This document shows positions 72 to 41,683 of a stretch of DNA of 64,000 nucleotides, one piece after another. Each line of letters starts with the position of its first letter. Positions within the stretch are counted from its first letter, which is position 1. The notes beneath the pieces are model-generated. The model worked only from the letters and a program-made list of their open reading frames with translations. It searched no databases and had not been told where the DNA came from. Position numbers and translations under genes: made by a program. This DNA is from an uncultured Gammaproteobacteria bacterium (GTDB taxonomy: Bacteria > Patescibacteriota > Patescibacteriia > Magasanikbacterales > JBBTXJ01). The stretch spans positions 235-64,234 of the forward strand of contig CAZWRL010000001.1 in the NCBI GenBank assembly GCA_964636345.1. The letters are read 5' to 3'.

Positions 72-728
72 CTATTGTTGTGTGAGAACGAAGTCACATT
101 GAACCCGGAAAAAGACGATGGGATCAACGGTGCCATCACCAAATTCGCCTTCGCAGGTGCCGGAGATTGTCTGGTGATCAAGAGACAAAATGCCGGTGAA
201 GGTGATCCAGTGTTTGCTTTCACCATAAGGAACATCACTGACATAACGGAAGCCAAGTGGCGGTGGATCTATGCGCCCATCGCGCCTCAGATCACCCCAG
301 AGCGGTCCGTCGCCACCTACATTTCCCCAGAGATTGCACCCGTCCTGGTTAAGTGCGGTTTCTGGTGTCAGCCAAAAATTTCGAGCAGCCATCGTGTTGT
401 TCGCAGGATCGAATTGGTAACCAAAGGTTTGCAGATTGCTGATTTCAATCGACCATATCCCCTGAAACCATTGTGGACAGGTGCAGATGCCAGGTTCCTT
501 CGCCCCGCACTCCAGCCCATCCAGACAGGTGTTGCTGGACGATCCGCCGCACGGCTCACCATCGGCGCCAGGCGGACGCACACCCTCTCCCTCGTTCGGA
601 GATCCTTCTCCCTCGTTGCCCTCGTTGCCGCCGTTGTCACTCCCGCCACTCGGCGTCTTGCTCTCCTCGCCACAGGCGGGGAGGAGAAGGCCCAACAGGG
701 CCATGCTCATCAGGTACTTTGACACCAT
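72..728 (-). CDS. Secreted lipoprotein, paralog 1 of 3; Asp-rich Ca-binding (thrombospondin-type-3-like DxDxDG) repeats and a Cys-rich C-terminal domain
   Basis: N-terminus MSMALLGLLLPACGEE is a signal peptide plus lipobox Cys. The N-terminal half is paralogous to ORFs 1557..2315 and 3590..4348, and the C-terminal half diverges. Confidence 0.6.
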   Translation of the reverse strand: MVSKYLMSMALLGLLLPACGEESKTPSGGSDNGGNEGNEGEGSPNEGEGVRPPGADGEPCGGSSSNTCLDGLECGAKEPGICTCPQWFQGIWSIEISNLQTFGYQFDPANNTMAARNFWLTPETALNQDGCNLWGNVGGDGPLWGDLRRDGRIDPPPLGFRYVSDVPYGESKHWITFTGILSLDHQTISGTCEGEFGDGTVDPIVFFRVQCDFVLTQQ

Positions 729-930
729 CTCTCTCCTCCTCGGTTTGTTGTTTCAATTAAACCACCTTTCGCGGGATTTGTCAATAGTATGTCATTGCGA
801 GGAGTCCCGATCACAATCGGGACGACGAAGCAATCTCATTAGATTGCTTCCCCCGGATCAGGTCCGGGGTCGCAATGACACTTTCGTAGAGGTCCATTGG
901 GTTTATGTTGCCTTCGCCGACCATGACCGC

Positions 931-1512
931 ATGCCAATAACCAACATCACCGTTGACTGGGATTTTGACAACCGCATCACCGGCGGTAACCCGGGTAAGT
1001 TCAAGAACAAAAAGACCCGGTGTTCCGCCAACAAAGCGGCAGCTTCTTGCGCGAATAATGTGAATGTCACCTGCTCAAAAGATACGGAATGTTCTGACAA
1101 TGGTCTTGGAGCATGTTCTGGCACTGCGGCTTCCTTTGGCAACTCGTCCGATGCCTGTGAAAAGGGATTCCATGAGTTCTTCGGTTCCTACAACTTCCAA
1201 CCCGATGATACCACCCACTGTAACTACAAGGTTGGAACAAACAACCCTGCCAATGTCACCACAGCCCAGCTCACCAGTTACGGCCTCTCCTTTGGAGACC
1301 GCTACTGCGCCTTTAAACCGAGAGTCATCATCATAGATAACTGGGGGTGGTGTAATGGGACGTGTGATGTGAATGGAGGGTGTTGGGAGAGTGACCGTGA
1401 TAGTGATTTAGCAAATTCTGGTCATTGTACCAATCCCAATCACGATGATTATAAGGCAGGAAAAGTTGGCACGCCATTTGATGGCTGGATAATTGTTGCG
1501 GAGCAGAAATAA
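931..1512 (+). CDS. Cys-rich hypothetical protein with a C-terminal DNWGWCNGT...GWIIVAEQK module; no recognisable signal peptide, so it may be 5'-truncated
   Basis: The 481..1512 ORF is antisense to the 72..728 gene before position 728, and the first ATG after that is at 931. The C-terminal ~90 aa are paralogous to the fragment 3169..3435. Confidence 0.4.
   Translation: MPITNITVDWDFDNRITGGNPGKFKNKKTRCSANKAAASCANNVNVTCSKDTECSDNGLGACSGTAASFGNSSDACEKGFHEFFGSYNFQPDDTTHCNYKVGTNNPANVTTAQLTSYGLSFGDRYCAFKPRVIIIDNWGWCNGTCDVNGGCWESDRDSDLANSGHCTNPNHDDYKAGKVGTPFDGWIIVAEQK
1247..1320. repeat. 74-bp direct repeat, copy 1, inside gene 931..1512; copy 2 is at 3169..3243
   Basis: Near-identical string ccaatgtcaccacagcccagctcaccagttacggcctctcctttggagaccgctactgcgcctt read at both sites. 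Confidence 0.85.
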
Positions 1513-1546
1513 AAAAAGCGGCTTCCCCCCAAAAGCCGCTTACGAA
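1513..1546. terminator. Bidirectional intrinsic terminator hairpin between convergent genes (aaaaaagcggcttcccccc aaaagccgctt)
   Basis: Stem gcggctt/aagccgc with an A-run upstream and T-rich sequence on the other strand. A homologous hairpin lies at 3556..3589. Confidence 0.5.
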
Positions 1547-1556
1547 CATGTACTAC

Positions 1557-2315
1557 CTACTCGCGCCGCGTGAGCACGAACGTACAGGTGATGGGAAAGA
1601 GATTCCGGCCGGTATGCCAGCCAGGATATTCCCCGGTGCAAGTTCCCTGGACGGATTTTCCATCCGCCGATACCTGTCCAGTTGACTGGAGTGAATGCTC
1701 CTGATTGTCGCCAGCATCCCAAGTCCGTTTGTAGGAAAAACTCAGGGAGGGTAGTTTGAGCTCCCCACTTCCGTCATCCCTTGCCCACAGAAACTGCAGA
1801 TCCGGACCTCGGATCACGCACCCATCCTGTTCAAAAGTAACCTCCTGCTCGCTCCAAAACTGCCGATCCAGCCCGGGAGCCATGAAATCGTACTCCTCCC
1901 CGTCGGTGCGCCGCACCTCCGTGAACTCCGCCCACCACGTCCCCTCCATCCACTGGGGACAGGTGCAGATGTCGGGTTTCTCTGCCTCGGCTCCGCACTG
2001 GAAACCATCCTGGCAGGTTCCGCCATCTCCGCAAAGCTCCGAGTCCGCTCCGGGAGGAATCCCATCCACCTTTCCGTCGCAGTCATTGTCCTTGCCGTCG
2101 GCAACCTCCTTGGCGCCCGGATTGATGCGCGGGTCGCTGTCGTCGCAGTCGTTCTGTACTTCTCCGCAGTAAGGCCAGAAATCTCCATCCTTGTCGTTGA
2201 TGTCGGCGTCGACGGAGGTGCACGCGCCTTCTTCTCCACCACCCGACGTCTTGCTCTCCTCGCCACAGGCGGGGAGCCCCAGGCCCACCAGGGCCATGAA
2301 AAGAACGTGCCGCAT
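1557..2315 (-). CDS. Secreted lipoprotein, paralog 2 of 3 (Ca-binding DxDxDG repeats, variable C-terminal domain)
   Basis: MALVGLGLPACGEE signal plus lipobox. About 125 N-terminal aa are almost identical to ORF 3590..4348; DNDCDGKVDG-type repeats. Confidence 0.65.
   Translation of the reverse strand: MRHVLFMALVGLGLPACGEESKTSGGGEEGACTSVDADINDKDGDFWPYCGEVQNDCDDSDPRINPGAKEVADGKDNDCDGKVDGIPPGADSELCGDGGTCQDGFQCGAEAEKPDICTCPQWMEGTWWAEFTEVRRTDGEEYDFMAPGLDRQFWSEQEVTFEQDGCVIRGPDLQFLWARDDGSGELKLPSLSFSYKRTWDAGDNQEHSLQSTGQVSADGKSVQGTCTGEYPGWHTGRNLFPITCTFVLTRRE
1930..2296. repeat. ~367-bp near-identical direct repeat (copy 1) covering the 5' coding half of lipoprotein paralog 2
   Basis: Copies 1930..2296 and 3961..4327 compared by eye; only a few mismatches. 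Confidence 0.8.
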
Positions 2316-2422
2316 CTTCTCTCCCTCCTCGGTTTTTTTGCCCCCCTTCTAGGGGGTGTTGTTTTTATTTCTCTACCTATTGTACTACAGGTAGCCATCC
2401 ATTAAACCATATACAGAGAGAT

Positions 2423-2451
2423 TTGTCAAGTGGTATTGATTGTGCTATCTT
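2423..2451 (+). promoter_or_regulatory. Candidate sigma70 promoter (TTGTCA, 17 bp, TATCTT) placing a transcription start ~2 nt before ATG 2460, i.e. a leaderless HEPN transcript
   Basis: Hexamers read directly; no SD before ATG 2460. Confidence 0.3.
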
Positions 2452-2459
2452 TACTGTGT

Positions 2460-2870
2460 ATGAAGGAAATAACGAGAAAGTGGGTTCTTTTTGCCCGGGC
2501 AGATCTTGATGCGGCAGAGCTCCAGTTTCGTTATGGCGGCAAACGCGGCAGTGCCTATCAGATTGCAGTGTTCCACTGTCATCAGGCAATCGAGAAGCTC
2601 TTGAAAGCACACTTCATTGAACAGGATAAAGAAGTGAGAAAGAATCATGATTTGATTCAGCTTCGGACAGAAATCAATTTAGAGTTTCCCAAAGAGCTTT
2701 CAGTAATAATTGAAAATCTGCATCCCCACTATCTGCTCCCTCGTTATCCGGATTTAGCATTTAGACCCGCATTTTCATTCTCGTACACCCGTTCAAACAC
2801 CCGAAAAATTTTATCTGACACCAGTAAATTATTCCTATGGCTCGAACGACTTTTAAAGAAAAAAAAATAA
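2460..2870 (+). CDS. HEPN-domain protein (toxin partner of a HEPN/MNT module); alternative GTG start at 2430
   Basis: HEPN-like features (CHQAIEKLLKA helix, LLPRYPD motif). Overlaps the downstream nucleotidyltransferase gene by 34 nt. Confidence 0.55.
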   Translation: MKEITRKWVLFARADLDAAELQFRYGGKRGSAYQIAVFHCHQAIEKLLKAHFIEQDKEVRKNHDLIQLRTEINLEFPKELSVIIENLHPHYLLPRYPDLAFRPAFSFSYTRSNTRKILSDTSKLFLWLERLLKKKK

Positions 2871-3169
2871 TCAGTGCCTATCAGAAAAGTTTAGAACCGT
2901 ATTTGCGGTTAGACGGCGTTTTCGTGTTTGGTAGTACCGCGCGTGGGGAACGGACGTCATCAAGCGATCTTGATGTTATTGTATTATCACGGGATTTTAA
3001 AAAAATGTCTTTCATGCGCCGCCTTCGATTATTGAACCGTCTTCGTTCGGGCCCAGCGCTTCATGTTCCTATGGATATTATCGGGTTTACGCCGGATGAG
3101 TTTAAATCATTGAAAACAAGCGAATCTCCAAATCTGCGACGGGTGTACCATGAGGCAAAAAAAATGTAG
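2837..3169 (+). CDS. Minimal nucleotidyltransferase (MNT, pol-beta superfamily); partner of the HEPN protein
   Basis: GS...DLDV motif: FGSTARGERTSSSDLDVIV. Confidence 0.7.
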   Translation: MARTTFKEKKIISAYQKSLEPYLRLDGVFVFGSTARGERTSSSDLDVIVLSRDFKKMSFMRRLRLLNRLRSGPALHVPMDIIGFTPDEFKSLKTSESPNLRRVYHEAKKM

Positions 3170-3435
3170 CCAATGTCACCACAGCCCAGCTCACCAGTTA
3201 CGGCCTCTCCTTTGGAGACCGCTACTGCGCCTTCAAACCGCGCGTGATTGTGGTGGATAACTGGGGATGGTGTAATGGGACGGATGCACAGGGTGCGATA
3301 AAAGGATATTGGGGCAATCCGGATGCGCAACAGGCGGAACATAATATTTGTACAAATAAAGATGCCGATGATTATATGGATGGTTTGATTGGAACTAAAT
3401 TTAGTGGATGGATTGTAGTGGCAGAGCAGAAATAG
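3169..3435 (+). pseudogene. Promoterless, start-less duplicate of the 3' module of gene 931..1512, with a divergent middle segment and conserved GWIVVAEQK end
   Basis: Homology begins at the last base of the MNT stop codon. The reading frame is open from 3154 but has no ATG; the only possible initiator is GTG 3244. A repeat shared with 1247..1320 precedes a variable block. Confidence 0.5.
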
Positions 3436-3555
3436 TTCTCATCCCGGACTCGCCGCGAGATCCGGGATCCAGTCAATTGATGGGTTCCGGGGGGGGGCCT
3501 GACGGGCCGAGCGAGCGCAGGCCCAGGAGTCCGGAATGACACATGCTGAAAAATA

Positions 3556-3589
3556 AAAAAGAGCGGCTCCCCCCAAAGCCGCTCGCGCA
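3556..3589. terminator. Bidirectional terminator hairpin (aaaaaagagcggctcccccc aaagccgctc), homologous to 1513..1546
   Basis: Inverted repeat and A/T runs seen directly. Confidence 0.45.
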
Positions 3590-4348
3590 CTAGTCACGCC
3601 GTGTGAGCGTGAAACTACACTCCACATTGAAGAAGGTATCTGGTCGCGTGGACACGTCCGGATACGTTCCGGAACAGGTGCCAGCAACAACCTGATTATC
3701 AGGAGCCATGTTACCCGTGAACGTAATCCACGCTTCGCCTTCAAGGCTACCCACTTCTCTCTTCCAGAGAAATCCGTTTGGTGGCGGATCCATCTTTCCT
3801 TCGCCAGCGTTTCCTGTTGAGAACGGCCAGTTTTCCGCTGGCCTGATCAAGGTACACCCATCCTGTTGGATGTCAACCTCTCGGTTCTCCCAGAACTGGC
3901 GAGAAATGTCGTGGGCGTTGAAGTCATACTCGTAGTCCACAGCATGGGCTGTAAACTCCACCCACCACGTCCCCTCCATCCACTGGGGACAGGTGCAGAT
4001 GTCGGGATTTTCCGTCTCCGCTCCGCACTGGAAACCATCCTGGCAGGTTCTGCCATCTCCGCAAAGCTCCGAGTCCGCTCCGGGAGGAATCCCATCCACC
4101 TTTCCGTCGCAGTCATTGTCCTTGCCGTCGGCAACCTCCTTGGCGCCCGGATTGATGCGCGGGTCGCTGTCGTCGCAGTCGTTCTGTACTTCTCCGCAGT
4201 AAGGCCAGAAATCTCCATCCTTGTCGTTGATGTCGGCGTCGACGGAGGTGCACGCGCCTTCTTCTCCACCACCCGACGTCTTGCTCTCCTCGCCACAGGC
4301 GGGGAGCCCCAGGCCCACCAGGGCCATGCTCATCAGGTACTTTGACAC
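3590..4348 (-). CDS. Secreted lipoprotein, paralog 3 of 3 (Ca-binding repeats, variable C-terminal domain)
   Basis: MSMALVGLGLPACGEE. N-terminal half ~identical to paralog 2; C-terminal half distinct. Confidence 0.65.
   Translation of the reverse strand: MSKYLMSMALVGLGLPACGEESKTSGGGEEGACTSVDADINDKDGDFWPYCGEVQNDCDDSDPRINPGAKEVADGKDNDCDGKVDGIPPGADSELCGDGRTCQDGFQCGAETENPDICTCPQWMEGTWWVEFTAHAVDYEYDFNAHDISRQFWENREVDIQQDGCTLIRPAENWPFSTGNAGEGKMDPPPNGFLWKREVGSLEGEAWITFTGNMAPDNQVVAGTCSGTYPDVSTRPDTFFNVECSFTLTRRD
3961..4327. repeat. ~367-bp near-identical direct repeat (copy 2) covering the 5' coding half of lipoprotein paralog 3
   Basis: Matches 1930..2296. Confidence 0.8.
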
Positions 4349-4528
4349 CGTCTCTCTCCTCCCCGGTTTTGTTGGATTCTATCGCCCTGCTTCGCTAAAG
4401 CTACGCAGGACCCCAGAATGACGTTGTTTTTTGTTACCACCGTAGCCCCAGTAAATCACAGACGGGGGAGTTAGTCAAGAGCCAATAAGTCGACGGTGAT
4501 TTACTTTTAAGAATTTGTGGATAATTTA

Positions 4529-4882
4529 TTAGGTAAAGAAGCGATCATTATAATATCTTTTTTGCGGTGAGAAGGTGCGGTGATAAAACTTTCCGAGCCG
4601 CTCAAGATCGTGTGGTTTTAGATTAAGTCCCACTTCCTCTTTTATCTCACGCAGCGCGGCTTGCAAATAGGTCTCTCCCTTGCGCACATGTCCGGCAACT
4701 AAATGGTCAAGATAACCCCCGTCACGCTTTTGCACTAAAATTTGTCTAGCCGCATTGATTAAGTACGCTGCGATCTCCCGATGTCGCAGTTGTTTGCCAT
4801 GTATGATCTGGGAAGGAAGATGCTGAATTACGCGATCATTTTTGTCCACCACCGGGATGAGTTCGAGCATAGGAGATGCCAC
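4529..4882 (-). CDS. Nudix hydrolase
   Basis: Nudix box GHVRKGETYLQAALREIKEEVGL (GX5EX7REUXEEXGU). Confidence 0.75.
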   Translation of the reverse strand: MASPMLELIPVVDKNDRVIQHLPSQIIHGKQLRHREIAAYLINAARQILVQKRDGGYLDHLVAGHVRKGETYLQAALREIKEEVGLNLKPHDLERLGKFYHRTFSPQKRYYNDRFFT

Positions 4883-5021: not shown

Positions 5022-5906
5022 ATGAGAGAAAAACTCGATGATCTTTTACATGCGCTTCAGGCGGCGCAAACGGCGGTAATACCTTATCTTGGAAATGGCT
5101 CGGTATTTGATATCGACGCAGCTGCAACAAACGCGTTGCGAGCCACGCTTCAATCTTGCACATGGGGCATGCGTGTAGCAATTGGCGAGGGGCGCAACGA
5201 CGATATGCCGGGACTTTTTCGTGATGAGTTCCTTGGCAACGGTCCGTTCTTGCACGAGATTGCGGTTGACCCGATTGATGGCACAACTCCTGCTGCTAAT
5301 CTGGGCATGCAACAACAATGGAAACAAGGGCAAGTCGTGAGTGCGCTTGCGCTTGCGCCCATAGGTACGATTTATTATCCTTCGGGATCTGAACGGCGCA
5401 TGGAACGTATCGCCGCGCCAGGCAAGGGGTATGAGCTATCGCTGGATGCGTCTCCAGCCGAGAATGTGGAGCGTATCGCGGCAGCGCTTCGCTGTGCGCG
5501 TCAAGAACTCACCGCAATTGTAGTGTCACCGCATCGCAACGGTGCGTTGATTGAGGAGTTGAAGAAAATCGGCTTGCCGATTCTGACGCCGAAGTGCGGG
5601 CTTGGTCTTGAGCTTGCGGCGTTCATTCCACGTCTTCTAGATAGGCATCACATTGTCTATGGCATTGGCGGCGAGCCAGAAACAGTGGTGTTGGCCGCGG
5701 CGGTGCGTGCGAGCGGTGGAACCCTTCTCGCGCGATTGTGGTGTCTGGACGAGGAAGAACGCCAAGCATTTGTCACAGTCGGTACGGATGTCACCCGCGT
5801 GTATCAAGAGAATGAACTAGTGCGAGGATCTTGCGGTGTTGTAGCGGTAGGAATTACGGATGGACCAATTCCTACCGAAGGCGTGGTTCTTAGCGAGGAA
5901 AAGTGA
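5022..5906 (+). CDS. glpX: Fructose-1,6-bisphosphatase class II (GlpX-like)
   Basis: GlpX-family motifs AIGEGR and HEIAVDPIDGTT (compare VDIAVDPIEGT); ~290 aa. Confidence 0.7.
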   Translation: MREKLDDLLHALQAAQTAVIPYLGNGSVFDIDAAATNALRATLQSCTWGMRVAIGEGRNDDMPGLFRDEFLGNGPFLHEIAVDPIDGTTPAANLGMQQQWKQGQVVSALALAPIGTIYYPSGSERRMERIAAPGKGYELSLDASPAENVERIAAALRCARQELTAIVVSPHRNGALIEELKKIGLPILTPKCGLGLELAAFIPRLLDRHHIVYGIGGEPETVVLAAAVRASGGTLLARLWCLDEEERQAFVTVGTDVTRVYQENELVRGSCGVVAVGITDGPIPTEGVVLSEEK

Positions 5907-5928: not shown

Positions 5929-6561
5929 TTATTTTTTGAAAAGTTTAATTTTCCGGAAGATATGGGTAACTGGGGGCGTGAAGTGAAGACGCGCCATTTG
6001 AGATTTTGTATACCACCGCAGGTGTATAGATTCATGCGGGTTTTTCTTGATCTTTCCTTTCGCATGGATAAGGTAGAGGCGCCAGAAATGCTTATTCACA
6101 CCCCGGGTGCATGGATCTGGATCAATCAGGCCTTGAAAAATGAGTTGTTTATCTTTAATAGTAAGTCCGGTCTCCTCTTTTACTTCGCGCGCGAGCGCCT
6201 TAATCATTGTTTCATGTTTATCAACGTGGCCGCCGATAGTGGCATAGAGGAATGGCCAGTGGGTACGCTTGGAGATAAGATATTTTCCATTTTGTTCAAT
6301 GAGCGCGCCCGCAGAAAAATGAATTGGACCTTGCGCGGTATGGCGCACCTTAGTCGGCCCCGTCAGCTCTATAAAACGTGGATTGGTCTTACCGCACGCA
6401 CGACAGTGAAACAGTAAATACTTACCTTTGTGAAGCACTTTTAGCTTAGGTGATTTACAGATAAAACATCCGCGAATTTCTTTAGTCATACAAATAGATT
6501 GTGCCTTGTACATCCAAAAAAAGAAAGGGCTGAGTAGGCCCTTGGAGAAGAACGTATGCAC
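5929..6561 (-). CDS. Nudix hydrolase with an N-terminal CxxC...CxxC zinc ribbon
   Basis: CFICKSP...CRACGK zinc ribbon, then Nudix box GGHVDKHETMIKALAREVKEETGL. Confidence 0.7.
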   Translation of the reverse strand: MHTFFSKGLLSPFFFWMYKAQSICMTKEIRGCFICKSPKLKVLHKGKYLLFHCRACGKTNPRFIELTGPTKVRHTAQGPIHFSAGALIEQNGKYLISKRTHWPFLYATIGGHVDKHETMIKALAREVKEETGLTIKDKQLIFQGLIDPDPCTRGVNKHFWRLYLIHAKGKIKKNPHESIHLRWYTKSQMARLHFTPPVTHIFRKIKLFKK

Positions 6562-8015: not shown

Positions 8016-8084
8016 GTTCTGGTTTGTGCTTGACATTCTCCGCGCTTTGGCGTTTACTAGAAGAGGGCAAGCCAAGGAGGATGT

Positions 8085-9110
8085 ATGAAACGGGTGGTAA
8101 CGATCGGAGGAGGGAGCGGGCAGTATGTGCTTCTCTCTGGGTTGCGTGATGTGCCGTTCCTTGAAATCACGGCTATCGTGAGTACCGCGGATTCAGGCGG
8201 ATCATCGGAGATATTGCGCAGGGAGCGAGATATACTGCCGGTTGGCGACTTTCGTCGTTGTCTGGCCGCGCTTGCGACCACCGATGACGCGGATCTTCGT
8301 TTTTTCTTTATTGATGAGGGGCGATTTGGCGGCGATGGGGCGCTCGCGCAACATCCGCTCATGAACCTTGCGCTTGCGTACGGGGCGGAGAATGATGTTG
8401 GGAAATTCCTTGGCGCGCTTCAGCGCATGGAGCGGTTGCTCAAGGTTCGTGGCCATGTGTTTCCCGTTACCCTTGCCAAAGTTGACTTGTGCGCTGAATT
8501 TGAGAATCACGAGATTGTGCGCGGCGAGCATTTGATTGATAAGGGTGAGCATGCGGGAACCGGACGCATTACGCGGCTCTGGCTTGAGCGTCGTCCTGAC
8601 GGCAAGAAGGATAGGAAGCAGATCCAACCGTTTAAGACCGCGCTTCAGGCGATCAAGCAGGCGGATGTGGTGATTGTTGGACCCGGCGATCTTTTCACGA
8701 GCATTCTTCCCAACGTCGTGGTGCCTCGCGTTGCGGAGGCATTGCGCGTAGCAAAGGGAAAATTGGTGTTTGTAACGAGCATCATGACGAAGCGCGGCGA
8801 GACAAGCGGTTTTGACGCGGTGGATTTCTTCACGGTCTTTGAGCAATACATCGGCCGTGAAGTTGATTATGTGGTATGCAACACCACGATGCCTTCAGAG
8901 AAGGCCATTACGCGTTACGCCAAGCAGGAAGCCGAGCCGGTGAGTACGCTCCGCCTCCTTGAACCAGCCATTGGCCGGGATGAGGGTTGGTATCTTGGTC
9001 GTCATCTGGTGCCAACCGATCTACTCTTTGAGGAGCCGAGCGGCTTTACGCGGCATCATTCGGAGAAGCTAGCCCATGCGGTGTATCGGATTATTCATGG
9101 GTTGCTTTAG
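8085..9110 (+). CDS. YvcK/CofD-like protein (UPF0052 gluconeogenesis factor / 2-phospho-L-lactate transferase family)
   Basis: VTIGGGSG...ITAIVSTADSGGSSEILR N-terminal signature; strong SD aaggagg before the ATG. Confidence 0.7.
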   Translation: MKRVVTIGGGSGQYVLLSGLRDVPFLEITAIVSTADSGGSSEILRRERDILPVGDFRRCLAALATTDDADLRFFFIDEGRFGGDGALAQHPLMNLALAYGAENDVGKFLGALQRMERLLKVRGHVFPVTLAKVDLCAEFENHEIVRGEHLIDKGEHAGTGRITRLWLERRPDGKKDRKQIQPFKTALQAIKQADVVIVGPGDLFTSILPNVVVPRVAEALRVAKGKLVFVTSIMTKRGETSGFDAVDFFTVFEQYIGREVDYVVCNTTMPSEKAITRYAKQEAEPVSTLRLLEPAIGRDEGWYLGRHLVPTDLLFEEPSGFTRHHSEKLAHAVYRIIHGLL

Positions 9111-9120
9111 ACAGGTTGTT

Positions 9121-9150
9121 TTAGGCCTATTGTTAGGCCTTATTTTTTTT
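9121..9150 (+). terminator. Intrinsic terminator (AGGCCT stem, T8 run) after the yvcK-like gene
   Basis: aggcctattgttaggcct followed by tatttttttt. Confidence 0.5.
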
Positions 9151-9202
9151 GCTTAGTAGAGATAATTTGTTTAATTTTAGCCAAAATATTGCCGTCAGGG
9201 CT

Positions 9203-9236
9203 TGACAAAATCCTCTGGATATGGTATACTACTCTG
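9203..9236 (+). promoter_or_regulatory. Near-consensus sigma70 promoter with extended -10 (TTGACA, 17 bp, TGgTATACT)
   Basis: ttgacaaaatcctctggatatggtatact read directly. SD gagga lies ~7 nt before ATG 9291. Confidence 0.55.
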
Positions 9237-9290
9237 TTCTTTGAGAGTGGAAATAAACAACGTTGGGGCAATGCCCCGAGGAGAATGCAG

Positions 9291-9752
9291 ATGACCAGGC
9301 GTAATTGGGAGTTCGTGGCGGTGCTCGTGGTGATGACGATCGTGGTGATGCAGACGGCCGGGTGCGGGACCCAGTGGTCGGGCAGGGTCCACATCCCGGT
9401 CGGCGACGGCGGGGAGATCGGGATCGGGAGCGGTAGCGGCGTCGGCGTGGACGAGGTCTCCGAGACCATGCCCACGCCCGAGGTTCGCGGTCGCACGACC
9501 GCGCTCTACAACCCCACCTCCAACTGGAAGCGCGTGCTCATCGAGGACTCGATCGTGTCCCTCGAGCCGCACCAGAACCTGTACGTGGTTCGGAGCACCC
9601 CCTACGGGTACCAGCTCCGGATGTGCACGTACGACGGCCAGGGCGTCTACTTCCTCGGCGAGGGTTCGCTCAACGTGAGCGAGCCGCAGGGCGTGATGCA
9701 GAATCACACCTTGTCCAACACGGGCCGACCCGCCGCGGAGTGCTCCTTCTAG
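9291..9752 (+). CDS. Small GC-rich secreted lipoprotein (hypothetical)
   Basis: MQMTRRNWEFVAVLVVMTIVVMQTAGCG is a signal peptide plus lipobox. Codon usage is visibly GC-rich relative to neighbours. The 9189 start in the ORF track would sit inside the promoter. Confidence 0.5.
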   Translation: MTRRNWEFVAVLVVMTIVVMQTAGCGTQWSGRVHIPVGDGGEIGIGSGSGVGVDEVSETMPTPEVRGRTTALYNPTSNWKRVLIEDSIVSLEPHQNLYVVRSTPYGYQLRMCTYDGQGVYFLGEGSLNVSEPQGVMQNHTLSNTGRPAAECSF

Positions 9753-9771
9753 GAGCGACACGTCACGCGGC

Positions 9772-9822
9772 GCGAGGGGCCATCGGATTCTACATCCGGT
9801 GGCCCCTCTTCTTTTTTATCCC
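9772..9822 (+). terminator. Hairpin plus T-run after the lipoprotein gene
   Basis: ggggccatcgga...tccggtggcccctc followed by ttcttttttta. Confidence 0.4.
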
Positions 9823-9886
9823 CCAATATTTTAGCGACGGGGGATTTTTTGTGCTATAATTTTTGTATGTTACTTAACGTGCGTCA

Positions 9887-12670
9887 ATGACCGCACAGTT
9901 TCGTTATACAAAAGGGTTGCTTTTGGTTTTACTGCTATTTTTTAGTTTTTCAATAGTTGCTCCTGTTTACGCGGAAGCGCCGGCGGCAGGCGCTCCGGCA
10001 GCGAGTTCCAAAGATGAAGATGATGGTATCATTGCAGGCGCAGTGAAAGGTATTTTTGATTCTTTACTTGGGTTCATTGCCACCCTTTTCCTCATGGTTG
10101 CCAGTTTGCTCGCGGGTATTCTTGGCATGTTTATCTCCCTCCTTTTGAGCGTTGCCTCGTATAATAATTTTATTAACGCGGGCGGGGTTATTATCGGCTG
10201 GACGTTGACGCGCGACATTGTGAACATGTTTTTTGTCGCGGTATTTTTGGTTATCGCGCTGGGAACGATTATCGGCAAAAAGGAGTATCACATCAAAAAC
10301 GCGCTCCCCAAATTCGCGCTTGCCGCTATTCTGGTCAATTTTAGCCGGCTCATTCTTGGACTTATTATTGACGCGTCGCATGTCATCATGATGACGTTTG
10401 TCAATGCCATTCAACAGGTGGGGGGCGGTAATTTTTTGGCAGCGTTTAATATCCAAGCAAATTTTGAGCTGGCCAAAGACGCAGGGCTTTCCGGGTTTGA
10501 TCAACTACTCACGGCCATTATGAGTGTGCTTTTGGTTTTTATTGCCACGGTTATTGTGGGAATGTTCGCGCTCATGCTCGTTATGCGAATGGTTGGACTC
10601 TGGATATTAATTGCCGTGTCGCCCCTTGCGTTTTTTTTGCGGAGCTTGGATTCAAAAAGTTTTCAAAAATACTACGGTGATTGGGAGGGAAAGTTTAAGG
10701 TAAATGTTTTGATGGGACCGGTGATTGCATTTTTTTTGTGGCTTGCGCTTGCCATGTCGCAAGGCGGTAAATTATATTCCAGCGAGGTAAAGGGTGCATC
10801 GGACGCGGAAGCGCAAAAGAATTTGGAAGGAAAACCCGGACTGGTTGGTTCTACCATTTCTACCATTGAGGGTTTGAGTTCGTTTATTATTTCAGCGGCG
10901 TTGTTTTTGTTTGCGTATCAACAAGCGCAACAATTTGCCAAAGAGAGCGGTATACCGGGAATGGATAAGCTGGTGGGTAAGGCGGGTGATTTTATGAAGA
11001 AGGGCGCCAAGTATGTGAGCGGATATAAGGCGGCGCGCGCGGTTGGGTCATACACGGTAGGCGCCGGAGCGCGCTGGGCGTTGCGTGCGGGAGCCGGATT
11101 GGCGCGCGGTGCAGTGGGGCTTGGTAAAGTGGTTGCTGGCGGATATGCTGCTGGTGGTATGCGTGGCGCGGCGGGTGCACTTGGCGGTGCGGCGGCTGGC
11201 GCAGCACGCGCACTGCCTGGCGCAGCCATGGGAGCGGTTCGTGCGGCGGCCGTAGTTGGCGGATTGAAGGGCGCGGGTATCGCGCTTGCCGCTGGTGCCG
11301 CTGGTCTTGGCGCGACTGCAGCTGCGGGAATCAAGGGTAAACTTGGTGAAGTTGCCTCAAAGGATATAGAGAAGTTTGGCAAGGTTGACTCCAATTTGTC
11401 TAATGATCAGTTGTCTGATGTGATGCGAAGAGGCGGCGCGCGCGGTCAGGCGGCAGGATTGTCACTTGCAAAGCGCGGGTATCAATTTACAGAGACAGAG
11501 GCCAAGACAATGCAGGCATTGCTTGCCGGCAATGGGCCATCTGAAAAACAATTTAAGGATAGCTTAAAGAAAAGTGCGCCGCATCTTGCGTATGATCTTT
11601 CCGATCCGAAAAAACGCAAAGAAATGTTGCGTGATCCGGAAGTGCAAACGAATAATCTGCCACGCGAAGCGTTTGAAGGGCCACATGGCGAAGCGCTCAT
11701 GAGTGATATGCTTGAAGATTTGGGTTCAAAGGGTCTTGGTAAACAAATTAATAGTTTGCGTAACCCTGACGCGCGCAAGGCGGCGCTCAATGTGATGCGT
11801 ACCTCCACCATCCCCACCGCCTTTCGTGAGCGTGGTACGCATGTGGCGCGGCTTGGCGCAACAACCGACACTACCGCAGGGACTGTTCACGGTGAACTCC
11901 ACATGAAACGCGCCGCGCTTGCGGCGCTTCCCGCGGGTAATACGATGACGAATCGGCAGAAAAAGATTGATCTTGAGCGTGATATACGCAAGCTTGAGGG
12001 TGAAAAAAGCGCGCTTGAAACACGGGTGAGTGCCGGTGTTGATCTTGCCAAGTTGCACGCTCAAGAGACAGGTCGGCCAGATCAGACGGTTGCTTCTTTG
12101 TCATCTGCCGAGCAAGCATCGCTTCTACCCGATCTTGTTCAAGAAGTAGGAGTTGGGGGCTTGAAACCTGAAGCGCTCCAGAATCCTGAAGTGTTGGCGG
12201 CAATTGAGAAAACTGCTGGTGATCGGTTTGGCGATGCCATGAAAAAGTTGGATCCGGAAAAGATGCGGGTGGTTGTAACGGCGGTTGCCAATATTAATAG
12301 CGTCTCTGCCCCACCAGAGCAGGTGCGTGTTAAGGTGCGGGTATCCGGTGATTTTACCGGCGTTGAGGCAAATCCAGAGCGCGCTGTCATTATACAACAA
12401 GCAGTTTCAGTTATGAATTCTCGCGAATTGGCGCAGGTTAAATTAGATACACTGGGCGGCACGAGAGATGATTTTTATAGTGCGTTGACGCAGAATCCTG
12501 GGGCGGTTAGGGGATTGAATCGGGCGGAGGGGATGAGTCAAGCAAAACTTGATGAAATTGAAGCCGAGGTCAAAAAACGTGCCGTCACCGATCCCGCAAA
12601 ATTTGGTGCGCTTGCGAAGGAAATAGGCAGTTGGAATAAAGGAAAGGGTGGCGGAGGGCGAGGACCCTAA
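9887..12670 (+). CDS. VirB6/TrbL-like polytopic membrane protein with a long Gly/Ala-rich and coiled-coil C-terminal extension (T4SS-like channel component)
   Basis: Signal peptide, at least 6 TM helices in the first ~330 aa, a low-complexity GA-rich region, and a C-terminal charged/coiled-coil segment. Position ahead of VirB3/VirB4-like genes. Confidence 0.5.
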   Translation: MTAQFRYTKGLLLVLLLFFSFSIVAPVYAEAPAAGAPAASSKDEDDGIIAGAVKGIFDSLLGFIATLFLMVASLLAGILGMFISLLLSVASYNNFINAGGVIIGWTLTRDIVNMFFVAVFLVIALGTIIGKKEYHIKNALPKFALAAILVNFSRLILGLIIDASHVIMMTFVNAIQQVGGGNFLAAFNIQANFELAKDAGLSGFDQLLTAIMSVLLVFIATVIVGMFALMLVMRMVGLWILIAVSPLAFFLRSLDSKSFQKYYGDWEGKFKVNVLMGPVIAFFLWLALAMSQGGKLYSSEVKGASDAEAQKNLEGKPGLVGSTISTIEGLSSFIISAALFLFAYQQAQQFAKESGIPGMDKLVGKAGDFMKKGAKYVSGYKAARAVGSYTVGAGARWALRAGAGLARGAVGLGKVVAGGYAAGGMRGAAGALGGAAAGAARALPGAAMGAVRAAAVVGGLKGAGIALAAGAAGLGATAAAGIKGKLGEVASKDIEKFGKVDSNLSNDQLSDVMRRGGARGQAAGLSLAKRGYQFTETEAKTMQALLAGNGPSEKQFKDSLKKSAPHLAYDLSDPKKRKEMLRDPEVQTNNLPREAFEGPHGEALMSDMLEDLGSKGLGKQINSLRNPDARKAALNVMRTSTIPTAFRERGTHVARLGATTDTTAGTVHGELHMKRAALAALPAGNTMTNRQKKIDLERDIRKLEGEKSALETRVSAGVDLAKLHAQETGRPDQTVASLSSAEQASLLPDLVQEVGVGGLKPEALQNPEVLAAIEKTAGDRFGDAMKKLDPEKMRVVVTAVANINSVSAPPEQVRVKVRVSGDFTGVEANPERAVIIQQAVSVMNSRELAQVKLDTLGGTRDDFYSALTQNPGAVRGLNRAEGMSQAKLDEIEAEVKKRAVTDPAKFGALAKEIGSWNKGKGGGGRGP

Positions 12671-12679
12671 ATTTACGGT

Positions 12680-13984
12680 ATGATTCATTTTACTCCACAA
12701 AAGGTTGAAGAGCTTACCGCAAAAGCGTTGCCAAAGGCGCGTGAGCAGGCGGCTGTTTTGGTTCCCGTTGTTACGGCAACGGTTGGTGGTTTGATTGATA
12801 ATTCCACGCGGGCAAAGACACTCGGGAAGATGTTTGGGTGGGCTGCGCTTGGGGGCGCGAATTATCTGCGTGACATGCCGCAAGAAATTATTGAAACATT
12901 CGGCACGGCGGAAGATGTGGCGTATACCTTGTGTGACCGCGTGCTTGAGGCGCATGGTGATTTATTTAAACCGTTTGTTGAACATATTGATGCCATTCGC
13001 CGGCCATGGCAGGCGAAAGTGAAACAGGATGTGATGAAGGAGCGTGCTGCGGATGGGCCGGGAGCAGTGATTGCGCCGACGGTGGTATTGCCAGTGATTG
13101 CGCCGCTTGAAGAGGCGCCGGTGAATGGCGGTTTGAAACATCAAGATATTGCTGATCGGGTGAATGCGCGTTTGGCAATGGTGGAACAGTTGGCTGGCGT
13201 GACATTTACTAATCCCGACATGGCGGAACGCTTTCGCCATGCGTTGCGCTGCGCGCTTGGTGGCGTGAAAAAGTTGGATGAGGTGGCGCGACAACTTGCG
13301 CTGGTGCCGGATCGCGGCGGACTCGGCATGGGACAGGAGGAAGTGCAGGAGATTGTTGGTTTGCTTGAACGGCTTCATGCCAAAGAAGCGGAACAAGCAG
13401 AGCGGGCGCAGATGAAAAAACCAGAAACGCCGAAGAGTATGTTGCCGATGGTGGTTGGCGAGATTGCTTCATCATCTTTACCCTTCGACTCCGCTTCGCT
13501 TCGCTCAGGGACAAATATTACTCGCAATGACACGTCTCAAAAACTTGATGAATTGATTCAACAAAGCGCGGCGAATGATTCAGTTGATCTTTCGGCACTT
13601 GCTACCGGCGGCGCGGATCTTGCGGCGTCGCGCAAAATGCATGATGTGATTGCCCGGCCGCTTACCATGGGGCCGCTTGAAGAATTGCGCACGCTTGATG
13701 TGACGGATTTCAGACGTTTGGCAACCAAAGCCGGCGCGGCAGTGGATAAAATTAAACAAAAATTGGAATTATTGCGTGACGATGGCGTTGACCGGTACGC
13801 GGCGGGCATTAAGGCGTGGCGCGGAAGCCCGCTCTACTTTCTGTATGTGGATATGGTGCAGGAAGGATTGGTGGAAGGGCGCGCGCTGGAAGATATCGCC
13901 GCGTCAGATACCAATGATCCGGAGCGTTTAAGTGGCGAAGAACTGAAAAGTATAGTAGAATTAAATAAGTCATTACGATTTTAA
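12680..13984 (+). CDS. Hypothetical soluble protein (434 aa) inside the T4SS-like cluster
   Basis: ORF packed tightly between the VirB6-like and PrgI-like genes; no recognisable motifs. Confidence 0.45.
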   Translation: MIHFTPQKVEELTAKALPKAREQAAVLVPVVTATVGGLIDNSTRAKTLGKMFGWAALGGANYLRDMPQEIIETFGTAEDVAYTLCDRVLEAHGDLFKPFVEHIDAIRRPWQAKVKQDVMKERAADGPGAVIAPTVVLPVIAPLEEAPVNGGLKHQDIADRVNARLAMVEQLAGVTFTNPDMAERFRHALRCALGGVKKLDEVARQLALVPDRGGLGMGQEEVQEIVGLLERLHAKEAEQAERAQMKKPETPKSMLPMVVGEIASSSLPFDSASLRSGTNITRNDTSQKLDELIQQSAANDSVDLSALATGGADLAASRKMHDVIARPLTMGPLEELRTLDVTDFRRLATKAGAAVDKIKQKLELLRDDGVDRYAAGIKAWRGSPLYFLYVDMVQEGLVEGRALEDIAASDTNDPERLSGEELKSIVELNKSLRF

Positions 13985-20877: not shown

Positions 20878-21035
20878 GAAAACTGCCTTCAGCTTAGCAA
20901 AGGGGGTAAAAACGTGTAAATAGGGGGCTGTGTACAGTTTATTTGTATCTGTTTTTACCGAGGCCGGAGCTCTTTACATGCGTGAATAGTTGTGGTATTA
21001 TTGATTGTCTCTCTGGGAGACACTGTTTTGTCATT

Positions 21036-22857: not shown

Positions 22858-22947
22858 TGGCGGAGGAGGTGAGATTCGAACTCACGAGGGCTGTTAGACC
22901 CTACCTCGTTAGCAGTGAGGCGCACTAGACCACTATGCGACTCCTCC
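22858..22947 (-). tRNA. tRNA-Ser (anticodon GCU), long variable arm, encoded CCA
   Basis: Reverse complement folds as acceptor GGAGGAG/CTCCTCC, anticodon loop CUGCUAA, long extra arm and T-loop GTTCGAATC. Confidence 0.8.
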
Positions 22948-25620: not shown

Positions 25621-25711
25621 TGGCGGTGGGGGTGAGATTCGAACTCACGGTACCCTTTGGGGGTACGACAGTTTTCAAGACTGTTGCCATCAACCACTCG
25701 GCCACCCCACC
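25621..25711 (-). tRNA. tRNA-Ser (anticodon UGA), long variable arm, encoded CCA
   Basis: Reverse complement GGTGGGGTGGCCGAGTGG...anticodon loop CUUGAAA...GTTCGAATC...CCCCACC-G-CCA. Confidence 0.8.
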
Positions 25712-25824
25712 ATCATGCGAAGGTAGTATGGCACACCAGAGCCAAAAAATCAAGGCGCGAGGTAGTGTTGACAGAGCGCGCCTCGTGTGATAATCTCACT
25801 CTATCTTTGACAACTAAGGAGTCA

Positions 25825-40964: not shown

Positions 40965-41683
40965 GTACATTGAATACATTTAGTGTTCACCTATCCGTGG
41001 TCATTCCGGCACATAACGAGGCGGAGAATTTGCGCGTGTTACTTCCGGAGTTGGACAATGCGCTCCAGCATATCTCCGCGGAAATGGTGGTGGTGAATAA
41101 CGCCTCAACCGACGCGACCGCGCGGATGCTCGCGGGGTTGCAGCGCGAGCTGCCGCGTCTTATGGTTGTTGAAGAACCAACACGTGGGTACGGCCGGGCG
41201 GTGCTGGCGGGGTTACGCCAGGTGCGCGGGGAAACCATTGCCATCATTCGGGGTGACGGCCAAGAGAAACCAATAGATGTTGCGCGGATGTATGCCTTTC
41301 ATCGCGCAGAAGGGCACGATGTTTCAAAGGGCGTGCGGAGCACACGCGCGCATGACGGCCTGCGCCGCATTGCGGTCAGTTGGTTTTTTAACACGCTGTT
41401 TCGGCAGGTATTTGAGGTTCCGTTTCGCGATATCAACGCTGCGCCCAAGTTTTTTTCGCGTCGTTTTTATGAGCAGGCGCGACTTGAATCATTGGATTGG
41501 TTTTTAGACGCCGAGATTATGTTGAAGGCCGCGGCGCTTCATTGCAAAATAGGGGAAATGGGAATAGAATACCTCCCGCGTCGTTCGGGGAAATCAACGG
41601 TGCGCTTTCGGCATATCGTGGAGTTTGTGAGAAATATCGCGCAGTGGCGGGCGCGCAAAACACATGACGGATACTTTTTATAA
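40961..41683 (+). CDS. GT2 glycosyltransferase
   Basis: LSVVIPAHNEAENL...; GT-A fold features. Confidence 0.6.
   Translation: MSTLNTFSVHLSVVIPAHNEAENLRVLLPELDNALQHISAEMVVVNNASTDATARMLAGLQRELPRLMVVEEPTRGYGRAVLAGLRQVRGETIAIIRGDGQEKPIDVARMYAFHRAEGHDVSKGVRSTRAHDGLRRIAVSWFFNTLFRQVFEVPFRDINAAPKFFSRRFYEQARLESLDWFLDAEIMLKAAALHCKIGEMGIEYLPRRSGKSTVRFRHIVEFVRNIAQWRARKTHDGYFL

What the first reader, a model, noticed from the sequence alone, without database searches (positions are those of the whole stretch)
3169..3435. Start-less 3' gene cassette fused exactly to the stop codon of the MNT gene
- A 74-bp block identical to 1247..1320, inside the Cys-rich gene 931..1512, begins at the last base of the MNT TAG.
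- It continues in frame into a divergent ~40-aa middle segment and the conserved ending GWIVVAEQK.
- It has no ATG, promoter or SD, so it looks like a silent donor cassette, as in pilin-type antigenic variation, or a remnant.
- The HEPN/MNT pair has replaced the 5' part of a duplicated unit.
Basis: seen in the sequence. Interest (0 to 1): 0.5.

Follow-up and report, generated by a model that had tools for sequence, protein, structure and literature searches.

The report
Truncated spare tip for giant protein
The flagged piece is a start-less, cut-down spare copy of the variable tip of a roughly 3,000-residue secreted protein of a candidate-phyla-radiation bacterium; it belongs to an array of such spares, each paired with a matching lipoprotein gene, and an inserted HEPN-MNT toxin-antitoxin pair replaced its front part.

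Summary
Bases 3169..3240 match 1249..1320 at 71 of 72 positions (65 exact), starting on the G of the MNT stop codon. The frame then runs through a divergent segment to GWIVVAEQK*.

The interpretation needs a larger frame. The supposed "expressed" gene, 931..1512, is itself a 5'-truncated orphan. Its family is the extreme C-terminal, cysteine-rich, PKD-like domain of secreted proteins of about 2,700-3,300 aa, widespread in Patescibacteria (1,166 representative clusters).

In close relatives a single contig shows the giant gene, then a lipoprotein gene, then a start-less orphan, then another lipoprotein gene. The window is syntenic with the region just downstream of that giant gene.

Orphans lack a start codon, a Shine-Dalgarno site, a signal peptide and the first strands of the fold. 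Their 5' ends fall at varying points.

Constant arms are homogenised within a genome. The roughly 40-aa variable segments fall into ancient types shared across lineages (dN/dS about 0.17). They co-vary with the C-terminal domain of the convergent lipoprotein.

HEPN-MNT replaced a repeat element and about 360 bp of one orphan's arm.

Architecturally this parallels the orphan cdiA-CT/cdiI and Rhs arrays and silent-cassette systems, in a new protein family and phylum. Donor activity is inferred, not shown.

The parts
3169..3435 (+). Flagged fragment C2': 5'-truncated orphan tip module (beta type). The frame is open from 3154; the stop TAG is at 3433-3435.
   Evidence: hmmsearch aligns it to profile positions 104-197 of the close-family profile and 156-236 of the distant-member profile.
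3169..3240 (+). Remnant of the constant arm, 71/72 identical to 1249..1320 (65 exact). C0, left of the window, is identical to C1 up to the same 3' boundary at 1320.
3283..3399 (+). Beta-type variable segment, lying between DNWGWCNGT and the last strand. It is 64% identical to the variable segment of P0003 from another lineage but only 35% identical to C1's.
   Evidence: dN/dS 0.17 against P0003.
3400..3435 (+). Conserved last beta-strand (FSGWIVVAEQK) plus the stop codon.
2460..2870 (+). HEPN gene of the inserted toxin-antitoxin pair. A promoter-like site lies at 2423-2451.
2837..3169 (+). MNT (minimal nucleotidyltransferase) gene. It overlaps HEPN by 34 bp, and the last base of its stop codon is the first base of the repeat.
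3157..3164 (+). A8 run at the end of MNT. It reads A_AAA_AAA in the MNT frame, and a -1 slip would read into the fragment's frame.
   Evidence: Read from the sequence; function not tested.
889..1512 (+). C1: a longer orphan tip module (alpha type). Homology to giant proteins starts at 889, 14 codons before the ATG at 931. There is no Shine-Dalgarno site and no signal peptide.
790..880 (.). Cloverleaf-like repeat element (GTCATTGCGA...TCGCAATGAC closing stem plus three hairpins) abutting the 5' end of C1. This element is missing from unit 2.
   Evidence: (-58 kcal/mol, z = -9.7).
72..728 (-). L1 lipoprotein gene, convergent partner of C0.
1557..2315 (-). L2 lipoprotein gene (MopE motif), convergent partner of C1. 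Its C-terminal domain groups with the lipoproteins that follow alpha-type tips elsewhere (63-65% identity).
3590..4348 (-). L3 lipoprotein gene, convergent partner of the fragment. It has a strong GGAGG Shine-Dalgarno site. Its C-terminal domain is 69% identical to the lipoprotein that follows beta-type P0003.
2401..2430 (.). Conserved intergenic block (ATTAAACCA...GATTTGTCAA, which reads TTGACA on the minus strand; a possible L promoter). Homology with relatives ends here, marking the left junction of the HEPN-MNT insert.
   Evidence: The promoter reading is my inference.
3436..3550 (.). Hairpin repeat element lying between the fragment and the L3 terminator.
3561..3584 (-). Terminator-like hairpin for L3 with its T-run on the minus strand. 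Equivalent sites lie at 26-48 (L1) and 1516-1541 (L2).
3951..4250 (-). 5' arm of L3, 97% identical to 1921..2220 of L2. This is the second conserved arm flanking the variable block formed by the tip loop and the L C-terminal domain.

Best explanation
Bases 3169..3435 are the 3' remnant of one 'orphan tip module'. This is a start-less copy of the last part of the C-terminal, cysteine-rich, PKD-like domain of a secreted protein of about 2,700-3,300 residues that is conserved across Patescibacteria.

In this clade the giant gene is followed by an array of such orphans. Each unit has:
- a constant 5' arm, kept 95-100% identical among copies within a genome;
- a variable loop segment of about 40 residues, belonging to one of several old types;
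- the conserved last strand;
- a convergent lipoprotein gene (L) whose C-terminal domain co-varies with the loop type.

The window holds (C0)-L1-C1-L2-[HEPN-MNT-C2']-L3, and the giant gene is expected just left of the window. A HEPN-MNT toxin-antitoxin pair replaced the repeat element and about 360 bp of the constant arm of unit 2. That left 72 bp of arm, the beta-type loop, the tail and an intact L3.

Shown: the fragment and C1 lack a start codon, a Shine-Dalgarno site, an export signal and part of the fold. The architecture 'giant gene, then orphan' exists in relatives.

Inferred: the array is a reservoir of alternative tip-plus-lipoprotein modules. Homologous recombination in the constant arm could load them onto, or exchange them with, the giant gene, either by deletion between direct repeats or by conversion that also uses the L 5' arm. 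The L genes are expressed on their own.

The truncated copy could still donate through its 72-bp arm, but it may simply be decaying.
For: Repeat and frame.

Family position:
- 97 of the C-domain hits in fetched loci lie at the very end of ORFs with at least 500 (mostly at least 2,000) residues upstream.
- The census gives 1,166 representative clusters. Full-length proteins are about 2,800-3,300 aa with the domain at the C-terminus and N-terminal signal peptides.

Orphan status of C1 and C2':
- A profile from distant members places orphan 5' ends at profile positions 35, 38, 40, 43/46, 78 and 156, whereas giants start at 8-10.
- L genes carry GGAGG sites and C copies carry none. No + strand promoter-like site lies upstream of C1.

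Architecture:
- L139 is a single contig carrying giant gene, L, orphan and L.
- L138 carries the giant gene, L, then glpX/CofD. L138 25154-27052 matches window 8070-9973 at 84%.

Exchange signature:
- The giant genes of L139 and L138 are 99.985% identical over 6,465 bp. They then diverge completely, exactly after DNWGWCNG, and carry different tips and different L genes.
- The delta and epsilon tips each occur both on a giant gene and as orphans.
- The two L001 paralogues are 100% identical for about 450 bp and then diverge abruptly.

Ancient types and co-variation: region identity matrices, L matrix, dN/dS about 0.17 within a type.

Insert junctions.

Analogous logic is documented for CdiA/Rhs orphans (PMC3150448; PMC3967940).
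Against: - No giant gene lies inside the window, so its presence next to C0 rests on synteny only.
- No recombinant junction was found in contigs from the window's own population.
- Constant arms are identical for 171-342 bp before the boundary. Short-read assemblies of relatives could therefore mis-join tips and contexts; only L139 is phased by SNPs.
- The remaining arm is only 72 bp, and the 3' tail matches over only about 33 bp at roughly 80%.
- Orphan arrays were found only in this clade, not around the about 100 other giant genes examined.
- C1-type copies keep an in-frame ATG, so translation is not excluded.
- The function of the giant protein, of the loop and of L is unknown (no Pfam or PADLOC match).
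Confidence: 0.65

Rival explanations
1. Inert debris. The fragment is only what was left when HEPN-MNT landed in one of several tandem duplicates. On this view the array has no cassette function, and the copies' similarity reflects recent duplication or passive gene conversion.
For: - Only 72 bp of the arm survives.
- No variant junctions appear in the population contigs.
- L3 is self-sufficient, with its own Shine-Dalgarno site and terminator.
- In CdiA arrays too, orphans are often disrupted by mobile elements (PMC3150448).
Against: - The frame is intact over 93 codons.
- The arm is 100% identical to C0 and C1 while the adjacent segment is only about 35% identical.
- Variable types are conserved across lineages under purifying selection.
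- The same tip types are seen both on giant genes and as orphans.
Confidence: 0.27
2. The tip is a polymorphic toxin or effector determinant and L is its immunity protein, making this a true CdiA/Rhs-like competition system. On this reading the fragment plus L3 is an orphan toxin-immunity pair kept for immunity.
For: - The partners co-vary.
- The partner genes look expressible while the tips appear silent.
- Identity breaks abruptly at a conserved motif.
- The architecture parallels that described in PMC3150448.
Against: - The variable part is a loop of about 40 residues inside a PKD-like sandwich that ends in a conserved strand. It is not a separate domain.
- No toxin or defence family matches.
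- L is a convergent, exported lipoprotein rather than a co-oriented cytoplasmic immunity gene.
Confidence: 0.1
3. The fragment is translated. This could happen either as the 63-aa ORF from GTG 3244, as publicly annotated, or as an MNT-tip fusion after a -1 slip on the A8 run at 3157-3164.
For: - The ORF is annotated in public records (P0009).
- A_AAA_AAA lies in the MNT frame, and the -1 frame is the fragment's frame.
- No terminator-like site was found between MNT and the fragment.
Against: - No Shine-Dalgarno site precedes GTG 3244.
- The product would be a third of a disulphide-rich extracytoplasmic fold without a signal peptide.
- A cytoplasmic antitoxin fused to that piece has no precedent.
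- The HEPN gene also ends in an A-rich run, so the A8 run may simply be how the inserted genes' ends are composed.
Confidence: 0.04
4. It is a template/variable repeat pair of a diversity-generating retroelement, or else an assembly chimera.
For: The variable region lies at the extreme C-terminus of an Ig-like fold, as in many retroelement targets in these phyla (my own knowledge). The region is also rich in repeats.
Against: - Substitutions between the copies are not adenine-specific, and there are indels.
- The junction is spanned at 100% identity by contig L090, L132 shows the same gene order, and the 72-bp repeat is shorter than k = 141.
Confidence: 0.02

Closest known systems
Orphan cdiA-CT/cdiI and Rhs-CT/rhsI modules downstream of giant CdiA/Rhs genes (PMC3150448; PMC3967940)
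   Same: - A giant secreted protein has a polymorphic C-terminus.
- Downstream lie arrays of gene fragments that lack translation initiation and export signals.
- The fragments retain varying lengths of homology to the constant region.
- Identity drops abruptly at a conserved motif (VENN there, DNWGWCNG here).
- Each fragment is linked to a co-varying partner gene that can be expressed by itself.
- Orphans are sometimes disrupted by mobile DNA.
- The proposed or demonstrated route to activation is recombination with the main gene.
   Different: - The protein family is unrelated and has no Pfam match. The phylum is different (Patescibacteria, which have no outer membrane, on my own knowledge).
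- The variable part is a loop of about 40 aa inside a PKD-like sandwich followed by a conserved final strand, not a toxin domain.
- The partner is a convergent lipoprotein.
- No CdiB, T6SS or PAAR context was seen.
- No toxicity or immunity has been shown.
Silent-cassette antigenic variation (Neisseria pilE/pilS, Anaplasma msp2 pseudogenes, Borrelia vls)
   Same: These systems also have promoterless, truncated copies with a hypervariable segment flanked by conserved sequence. Conserved parts are homogenised and the variable types are old.
   Different: - Each cassette here carries a co-varying partner gene.
- The expression gene is about 8 kb and only its last 150 bp or so vary.
- There are few cassettes (three or more here), not tens.
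- No gene conversion has been observed.
- There is no vertebrate immune pressure; the likely selective agents are hosts, phages or kin.
HEPN-MNT toxin-antitoxin modules
   Same: The two small overlapping genes carry HEPN and minimal nucleotidyltransferase domains, inserted as a compact unit of about 740 bp.
   Different: The pair is not part of the cassette system. Its role here is as the disrupting insert. It may also stabilise the interval between the direct repeats, which is speculation on my part.
PKD / bacterial Ig-like domains at the tips of surface proteins
   Same: The model shows a beta-sandwich with a WD(F/W)GDG-like motif (VDWGDG). The variable loop sits before the last strand, in a position like that of an FG loop.
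   Different: Large cysteine-rich insertions double the domain's size, and no PKD profile matches.

Membership tests
Orphan C-terminal modules of polymorphic giant exoproteins (CdiA/Rhs type) | A full-length giant secreted-protein gene lies upstream of the fragments | tested here: inconclusive
   Met in relatives: L139 is a single contig with giant gene, L, orphan and L, and L138 carries the giant gene with a signal peptide. It is not visible in the window, where only synteny and the C0 3' end to the left of position 1 point to it.
Orphan C-terminal modules of polymorphic giant exoproteins (CdiA/Rhs type) | Fragments lack translation-initiation and export signals and retain varying lengths of constant-region homology | tested here: met
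   C2' has no ATG or Shine-Dalgarno site. C1's homology starts 14 codons before its ATG. Orphan 5' ends fall at profile positions 35-156. Signal peptides occur only in the full-length giants.
Orphan C-terminal modules of polymorphic giant exoproteins (CdiA/Rhs type) | Identity between copies falls abruptly at a conserved demarcating motif | tested here: met
   L001 paralogues are 100% identical up to ...WCNG. L139 and L138 are 99.985% identical up to the same point. In the window the boundary is at 1320/3240, with decay after 3282.
Orphan C-terminal modules of polymorphic giant exoproteins (CdiA/Rhs type) | The variable C-terminus is an autonomous toxin domain neutralised by a co-oriented immunity gene | tested here: not met
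   The variable part is a loop of about 40 aa within a PKD-like fold, followed by a conserved strand. There are no toxin or defence profile hits. The partner is a convergent lipoprotein.
Orphan C-terminal modules of polymorphic giant exoproteins (CdiA/Rhs type) | The partner gene co-varies with the variable C-terminus | tested here: met
   L C-terminal domains are 63-69% identical within the alpha and beta tip types and 27-50% identical between types. Physical linkage of the two genes is an alternative cause of this pattern.
Silent-cassette antigenic variation (pilE/pilS type) | Promoterless truncated copies with a variable segment flanked on both sides by conserved sequence | tested here: met
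Silent-cassette antigenic variation (pilE/pilS type) | Non-reciprocal transfer from silent copy to expression site, observed within a lineage | not testable with these tools
   This needs reads, long molecules or a culture. Comparisons between contigs are suggestive but are exposed to repeat mis-assembly.
HEPN-MNT toxin-antitoxin | Adjacent or overlapping genes with HEPN and minimal nucleotidyltransferase domains | tested here: met
   PF05168 at 1.3e-20 and PF01909 at 2e-08. The MNT carries the motif GSTARGERTSSSDLDV. The genes overlap at 2837-2870.
Diversity-generating retroelement | Template and variable repeats differ only at template adenines, without indels | tested here: not met
   The 10 substitutions in 3169..3282 are of mixed types, and indels follow further on.
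PKD domain | PKD beta-sandwich fold and a match to a PKD sequence profile | tested here: inconclusive

The most novel reading that the evidence does not exclude
Patescibacteria of this clade may run a recombination-based switching or polymorphism system for the distal loop of the C-terminal domain of their conserved secreted protein of about 3,000 aa. On this reading a cognate membrane lipoprotein is exchanged with the loop, as a unit, from an array of silent modules. Together they would form a lock-and-key recognition pair (for host attachment, kin discrimination or phage-receptor variation). The HEPN-MNT pair sits between direct repeats, where it would penalise loss of the module by deletion.
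Probability: 0.3. Interest if true: 0.8.

Novelty: new variant of a known kind. Interest (0 to 1): 0.6.

Why it matters
Cultivated candidate-phyla-radiation bacteria live as episymbionts on other microbes (abstract listed), and how they recognise partners is largely unknown.

This locus points to one conserved, completely unannotated giant secreted protein (1,166 representative clusters, no Pfam domain). The last loop of this protein is the target of cassette-style diversification together with a co-varying lipoprotein. That gives a concrete, testable candidate for a specificity determinant.

It also extends the 'giant gene plus orphan C-terminal modules' architecture. That architecture is known from proteobacterial CdiA/Rhs toxins, and here it appears in an unrelated fold and phylum.

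For annotation, it shows that the 63-aa and 193-aa 'hypothetical proteins' called here are gene fragments.

Tried and rejected
- **Domain searches.** Pfam and PADLOC on C1, the fragment and the L proteins found nothing beyond the MopE motif. Pfam on nine giant proteins or ORFs found nothing useful.
- **RNA families.** Rfam at the gathering threshold found only two tRNAs. The permissive scan of 700-4600 gave one sub-threshold hit on the cloverleaf element (P13 sRNA, E = 0.3), which I treat as chance.
- **Finding the giant gene next to the window.** Contig look-ups with P0009 and L1 returned only 1.3-2 kb contigs broken at the repeats. A protein search with the constant region found only P0001 and P0002.
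- **Retroelement reading.** Rejected on the substitution spectrum and indels.
- **Assembly chimera.** Rejected because L090 spans the junction at 100% identity and the repeat is shorter than k.
- **Literature.** Searches for a prior description in these phyla found nothing relevant.
- **Weak similarity at 3154-3168.** These bases match C1 at 11 of 16 positions. This is noted but cannot be told apart from A-rich composition.
- **Placing L132.** My attempt to place contig L132 on the window found no match, so its identity was not measured.

Full report
**1. The observation**

At a fixed offset of 1920 bp, window 3169..3233 is identical to 1249..1313 (65 bp). One T/C mismatch follows, then 6 more identical bases.

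Base 3169 is the G of the MNT stop codon TAG. The frame is open from 3154, after an in-frame TGA at 3151-3153. It encodes GKKNVANVTTAQLTSYGLSFGDRYCAFKPRVIVVDNWGWCNGT, then a divergent segment, then GWIVVAEQK and TAG at 3433-3435.

There is no in-frame ATG. The only in-frame start is GTG 3244, which has no Shine-Dalgarno site. A public annotation calls it a 63-aa protein (P0009).

HEPN (2460..2870) and MNT (2837..3169) are confirmed by Pfam.

Contig L090, from a separate public record, spans the junction at 100% identity. L132, another record, carries the same gene order, including the exact 63-aa ORF. The 72-bp repeat is shorter than the assembler's k-mer. I therefore take the junction as real.

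**2. What the Cys-rich "gene" is**

Close homologues of 931..1512 are proteins of 178-208 aa that start with MPI. This at first suggested an independent gene.

A scan of one genome per species changed the picture. It found 179 confirmed relatives, almost all in Patescibacteria MAGs, mainly Magasanikbacteria. Some closest hits are labelled "uncultured Gammaproteobacteria", which I suspect are mislabelled. I did not classify the window's own genome independently.

In 97 of the hits in fetched loci, the domain is the very end of an ORF with at least 500, and mostly at least 2,000, residues upstream. A representative subset of those ORFs contains no masked bases.

A profile search of 1.84 billion representatives found 1,166 clusters. 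Full-length members are about 2,800-3,300 aa, always with the domain at the C-terminus. They carry N-terminal Sec-type signal peptides and 3.2-4.1% Cys. They have no informative Pfam domain.

**3. 931..1512 is itself a truncated orphan**

- In the family alignment the conserved domain begins about 60 residues before the "MPI" Met. That Met is a conserved internal residue (...FFAyADxdqMPIxxIxVDWGDG).
- A profile built only from distant members aligns to the window ORF from 14 codons upstream of the ATG (EVHWVYVAFADHDR). That is exactly where a repeat element ends.
- Other orphans start at profile positions 35, 40, 43/46 and 78, and the flagged fragment starts at 156. Giants start at 8-10.
- In L089 the "ATG" of P0006 comes from the terminal GCAATGAC of the repeat element.
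- C copies have no Shine-Dalgarno site, no promoter-like site and no signal peptide. The adjacent L genes have GGAGG sites and their own terminators.

**4. Architecture in relatives and synteny**

An exact look-up showed that C1 clusters with a 2,683-aa protein.

Its scaffold (L138) carries the giant gene, a convergent L gene, and further on glpX-like and CofD genes. L138 25154-27052 matches window 8070-9973 at 84%. The window's array therefore sits where the region just downstream of the giant gene sits in the relative.

L139 is a single 9.2-kb contig carrying giant gene (at least 2,212 aa), L, a start-less orphan, then L.

To the left of window position 1, short contigs show a third copy, C0. 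It is identical to C1 from at least 1186 to 1320 and has its own variable segment. C0 may be the 3' end of the giant gene.

**5. Mosaic structure**

Constant regions group by genome. C0, C1 and C2' are 95-97% identical to one another, and the two L001 paralogues are 100% identical over about 450 bp.

Variable segments group by type across lineages:
- C1 with the L088 giant tip (64%), the L085 edge copy (58%) and P0006 (51%).
- C2' with P0003 (64%).
- C0 with L001_C191 (56%).
- Paralogues within the window share only 21-42%.

Within a type, dN/dS in the variable part is about 0.17, with dS above 1. The "variable" part (dN 0.20) is more conserved than the "constant" part across those lineages (dN 0.35-0.49).

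The C-terminal domains of the convergent lipoproteins co-vary with tip type. L2 is 63-65% identical to the lipoproteins after other alpha tips, and L3 is 69% identical to the one after beta-type P0003. Otherwise identity is 27-50%. L 5' halves are again homogenised: L2 and L3 are 97% identical over 300 nt. The variable block is thus the tip loop, the terminator and the L C-terminal domain, flanked by two conserved arms.

**6. Exchange signature**

The giant genes of L139 and L138 are 99.985% identical over 6,465 bp. They diverge completely right after DNWGWCNG and carry different tips and different L genes.

The delta tip sits on the giant gene in L139 and is an orphan in L001 and L002. The epsilon tip sits on the giant gene in L138 and is an orphan in L141.

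There is a caveat. The copies are identical for 171-342 bp before the boundary, so short-read assemblers could mis-join contexts. Only L139 is phased by SNPs less than 141 bp apart.

**7. The HEPN-MNT insert**

Homology of the L2-side intergenic region with relatives ends at about 2430, just after a conserved block that reads TTGACA on the minus strand. I take that block to be a possible L promoter, which is my inference. Homology resumes at 3169.

The insert of about 740 bp replaced the cloverleaf repeat element and about 360 bp of constant arm. It is found only in this population (L090, L132).

**8. Mechanism**

Shown: the fragment is a 5'-truncated orphan that by itself cannot yield a folded, exported product.

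Inferred: the array stores alternative tip-plus-lipoprotein modules. These could be loaded onto the giant gene by recombination in the constant arm. This has been proposed for CdiA orphans and demonstrated for an Rhs orphan (PMC3150448; PMC3967940).

For this fragment, a crossover between 1249..1320 and 3169..3240 would delete 1,920 bp (the alpha loop, L2 and HEPN-MNT). It would rebuild a C1-length copy bearing the beta loop next to L3. Conversion that also uses the L 5' arm would swap modules without deletion.

Whether this still happens with a 72-bp arm is unknown, and a decaying remnant remains a strong rival.

**9. Comparison and novelty**

The architecture and logic match orphan CT/partner arrays and silent-cassette systems. 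Membership in the CdiA/Rhs toxin class fails on the toxin-domain criterion. The diversity-generating retroelement reading fails on the mismatch pattern. I found no prior description in these phyla.

I rate it a new variant of a known kind. The flagged fragment by itself is modest. The system it exposes is of real interest.

Noticed in passing
window 790-880 (also 3436-3550; GTCATTSCGR ends at 13522-13531, 41000-41009, 56589-56598): A cloverleaf-like repeat element: a 12-bp closing stem (GTCATTGCGA...TCGCAATGAC) plus three hairpins, -58 kcal/mol, z = -9.7. It abuts the 5' end of orphan modules here and in relatives (L001, L002, L088, L089, L003). In L089 its end supplies the false ATG of an annotated protein. 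There is no Rfam family for it.
   Followed up: partly
window 3157-3164: An A8 run at the end of MNT forms A_AAA_AAA in the MNT frame. A -1 slip would continue into the fragment's frame. This is probably coincidence, since the HEPN gene also ends in an A-rich run.
   Followed up: no
window 1921-2220 vs 3951-4250: The 5' halves of lipoprotein genes L2 and L3 are 97% identical while their 3' halves diverge. This mosaic mirrors that of the tip modules and bounds a variable block from the other side.
   Followed up: yes
L003 353-2636 / L004 164-2448: In Hainich groundwater relatives, three genes sit between two tip copies: a radical SAM/SPASM enzyme, a 58-aa Cys-rich peptide (ending ...CAGECTCRCS) and a 176-aa protein. 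This array position seems to accept varied cargo, as it does HEPN-MNT here.
   Followed up: no
L003 3-167: A tip copy at the contig edge ends prematurely (…WCNGTNNAGGPEGKWGNRL*) without the conserved last strand. It is either a 3'-decayed copy or a divergent short type.
   Followed up: no
window 3244-3435 and 931-1512 in public annotation: Both are carried as proteins in public collections (63 aa, P0009; 193 aa, P0176), although they are gene fragments. Clustering at 90% identity links the 193-aa fragment to a 2,683-aa protein.
   Followed up: yes
window 15122-17194; 20943-22817; 22861-22947(-); 25624-25711(-): A TraG/VirB4-like P-loop ATPase, BipA/TypA, and two long-arm tRNAs. This is ordinary chromosomal context. 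ORFs 9887-12667, 12680-13981 and 25657-27903 have no Pfam match.
   Followed up: no
window 4532-4882(-) and 5929-6558(-): Two NUDIX hydrolase genes flank a glpX-type FBPase (5022-5903). In the relative L138 the interval between the giant-gene locus and glpX/CofD holds different genes (Ddl, ASCH, HicA-like), so the flank is also variable.
   Followed up: partly
L079, L045: Some fetched genome loci contain masked N runs that inflate stop-free ORFs. The loci I checked for the 'giant ORF' claim (a representative subset) had none.
   Followed up: yes
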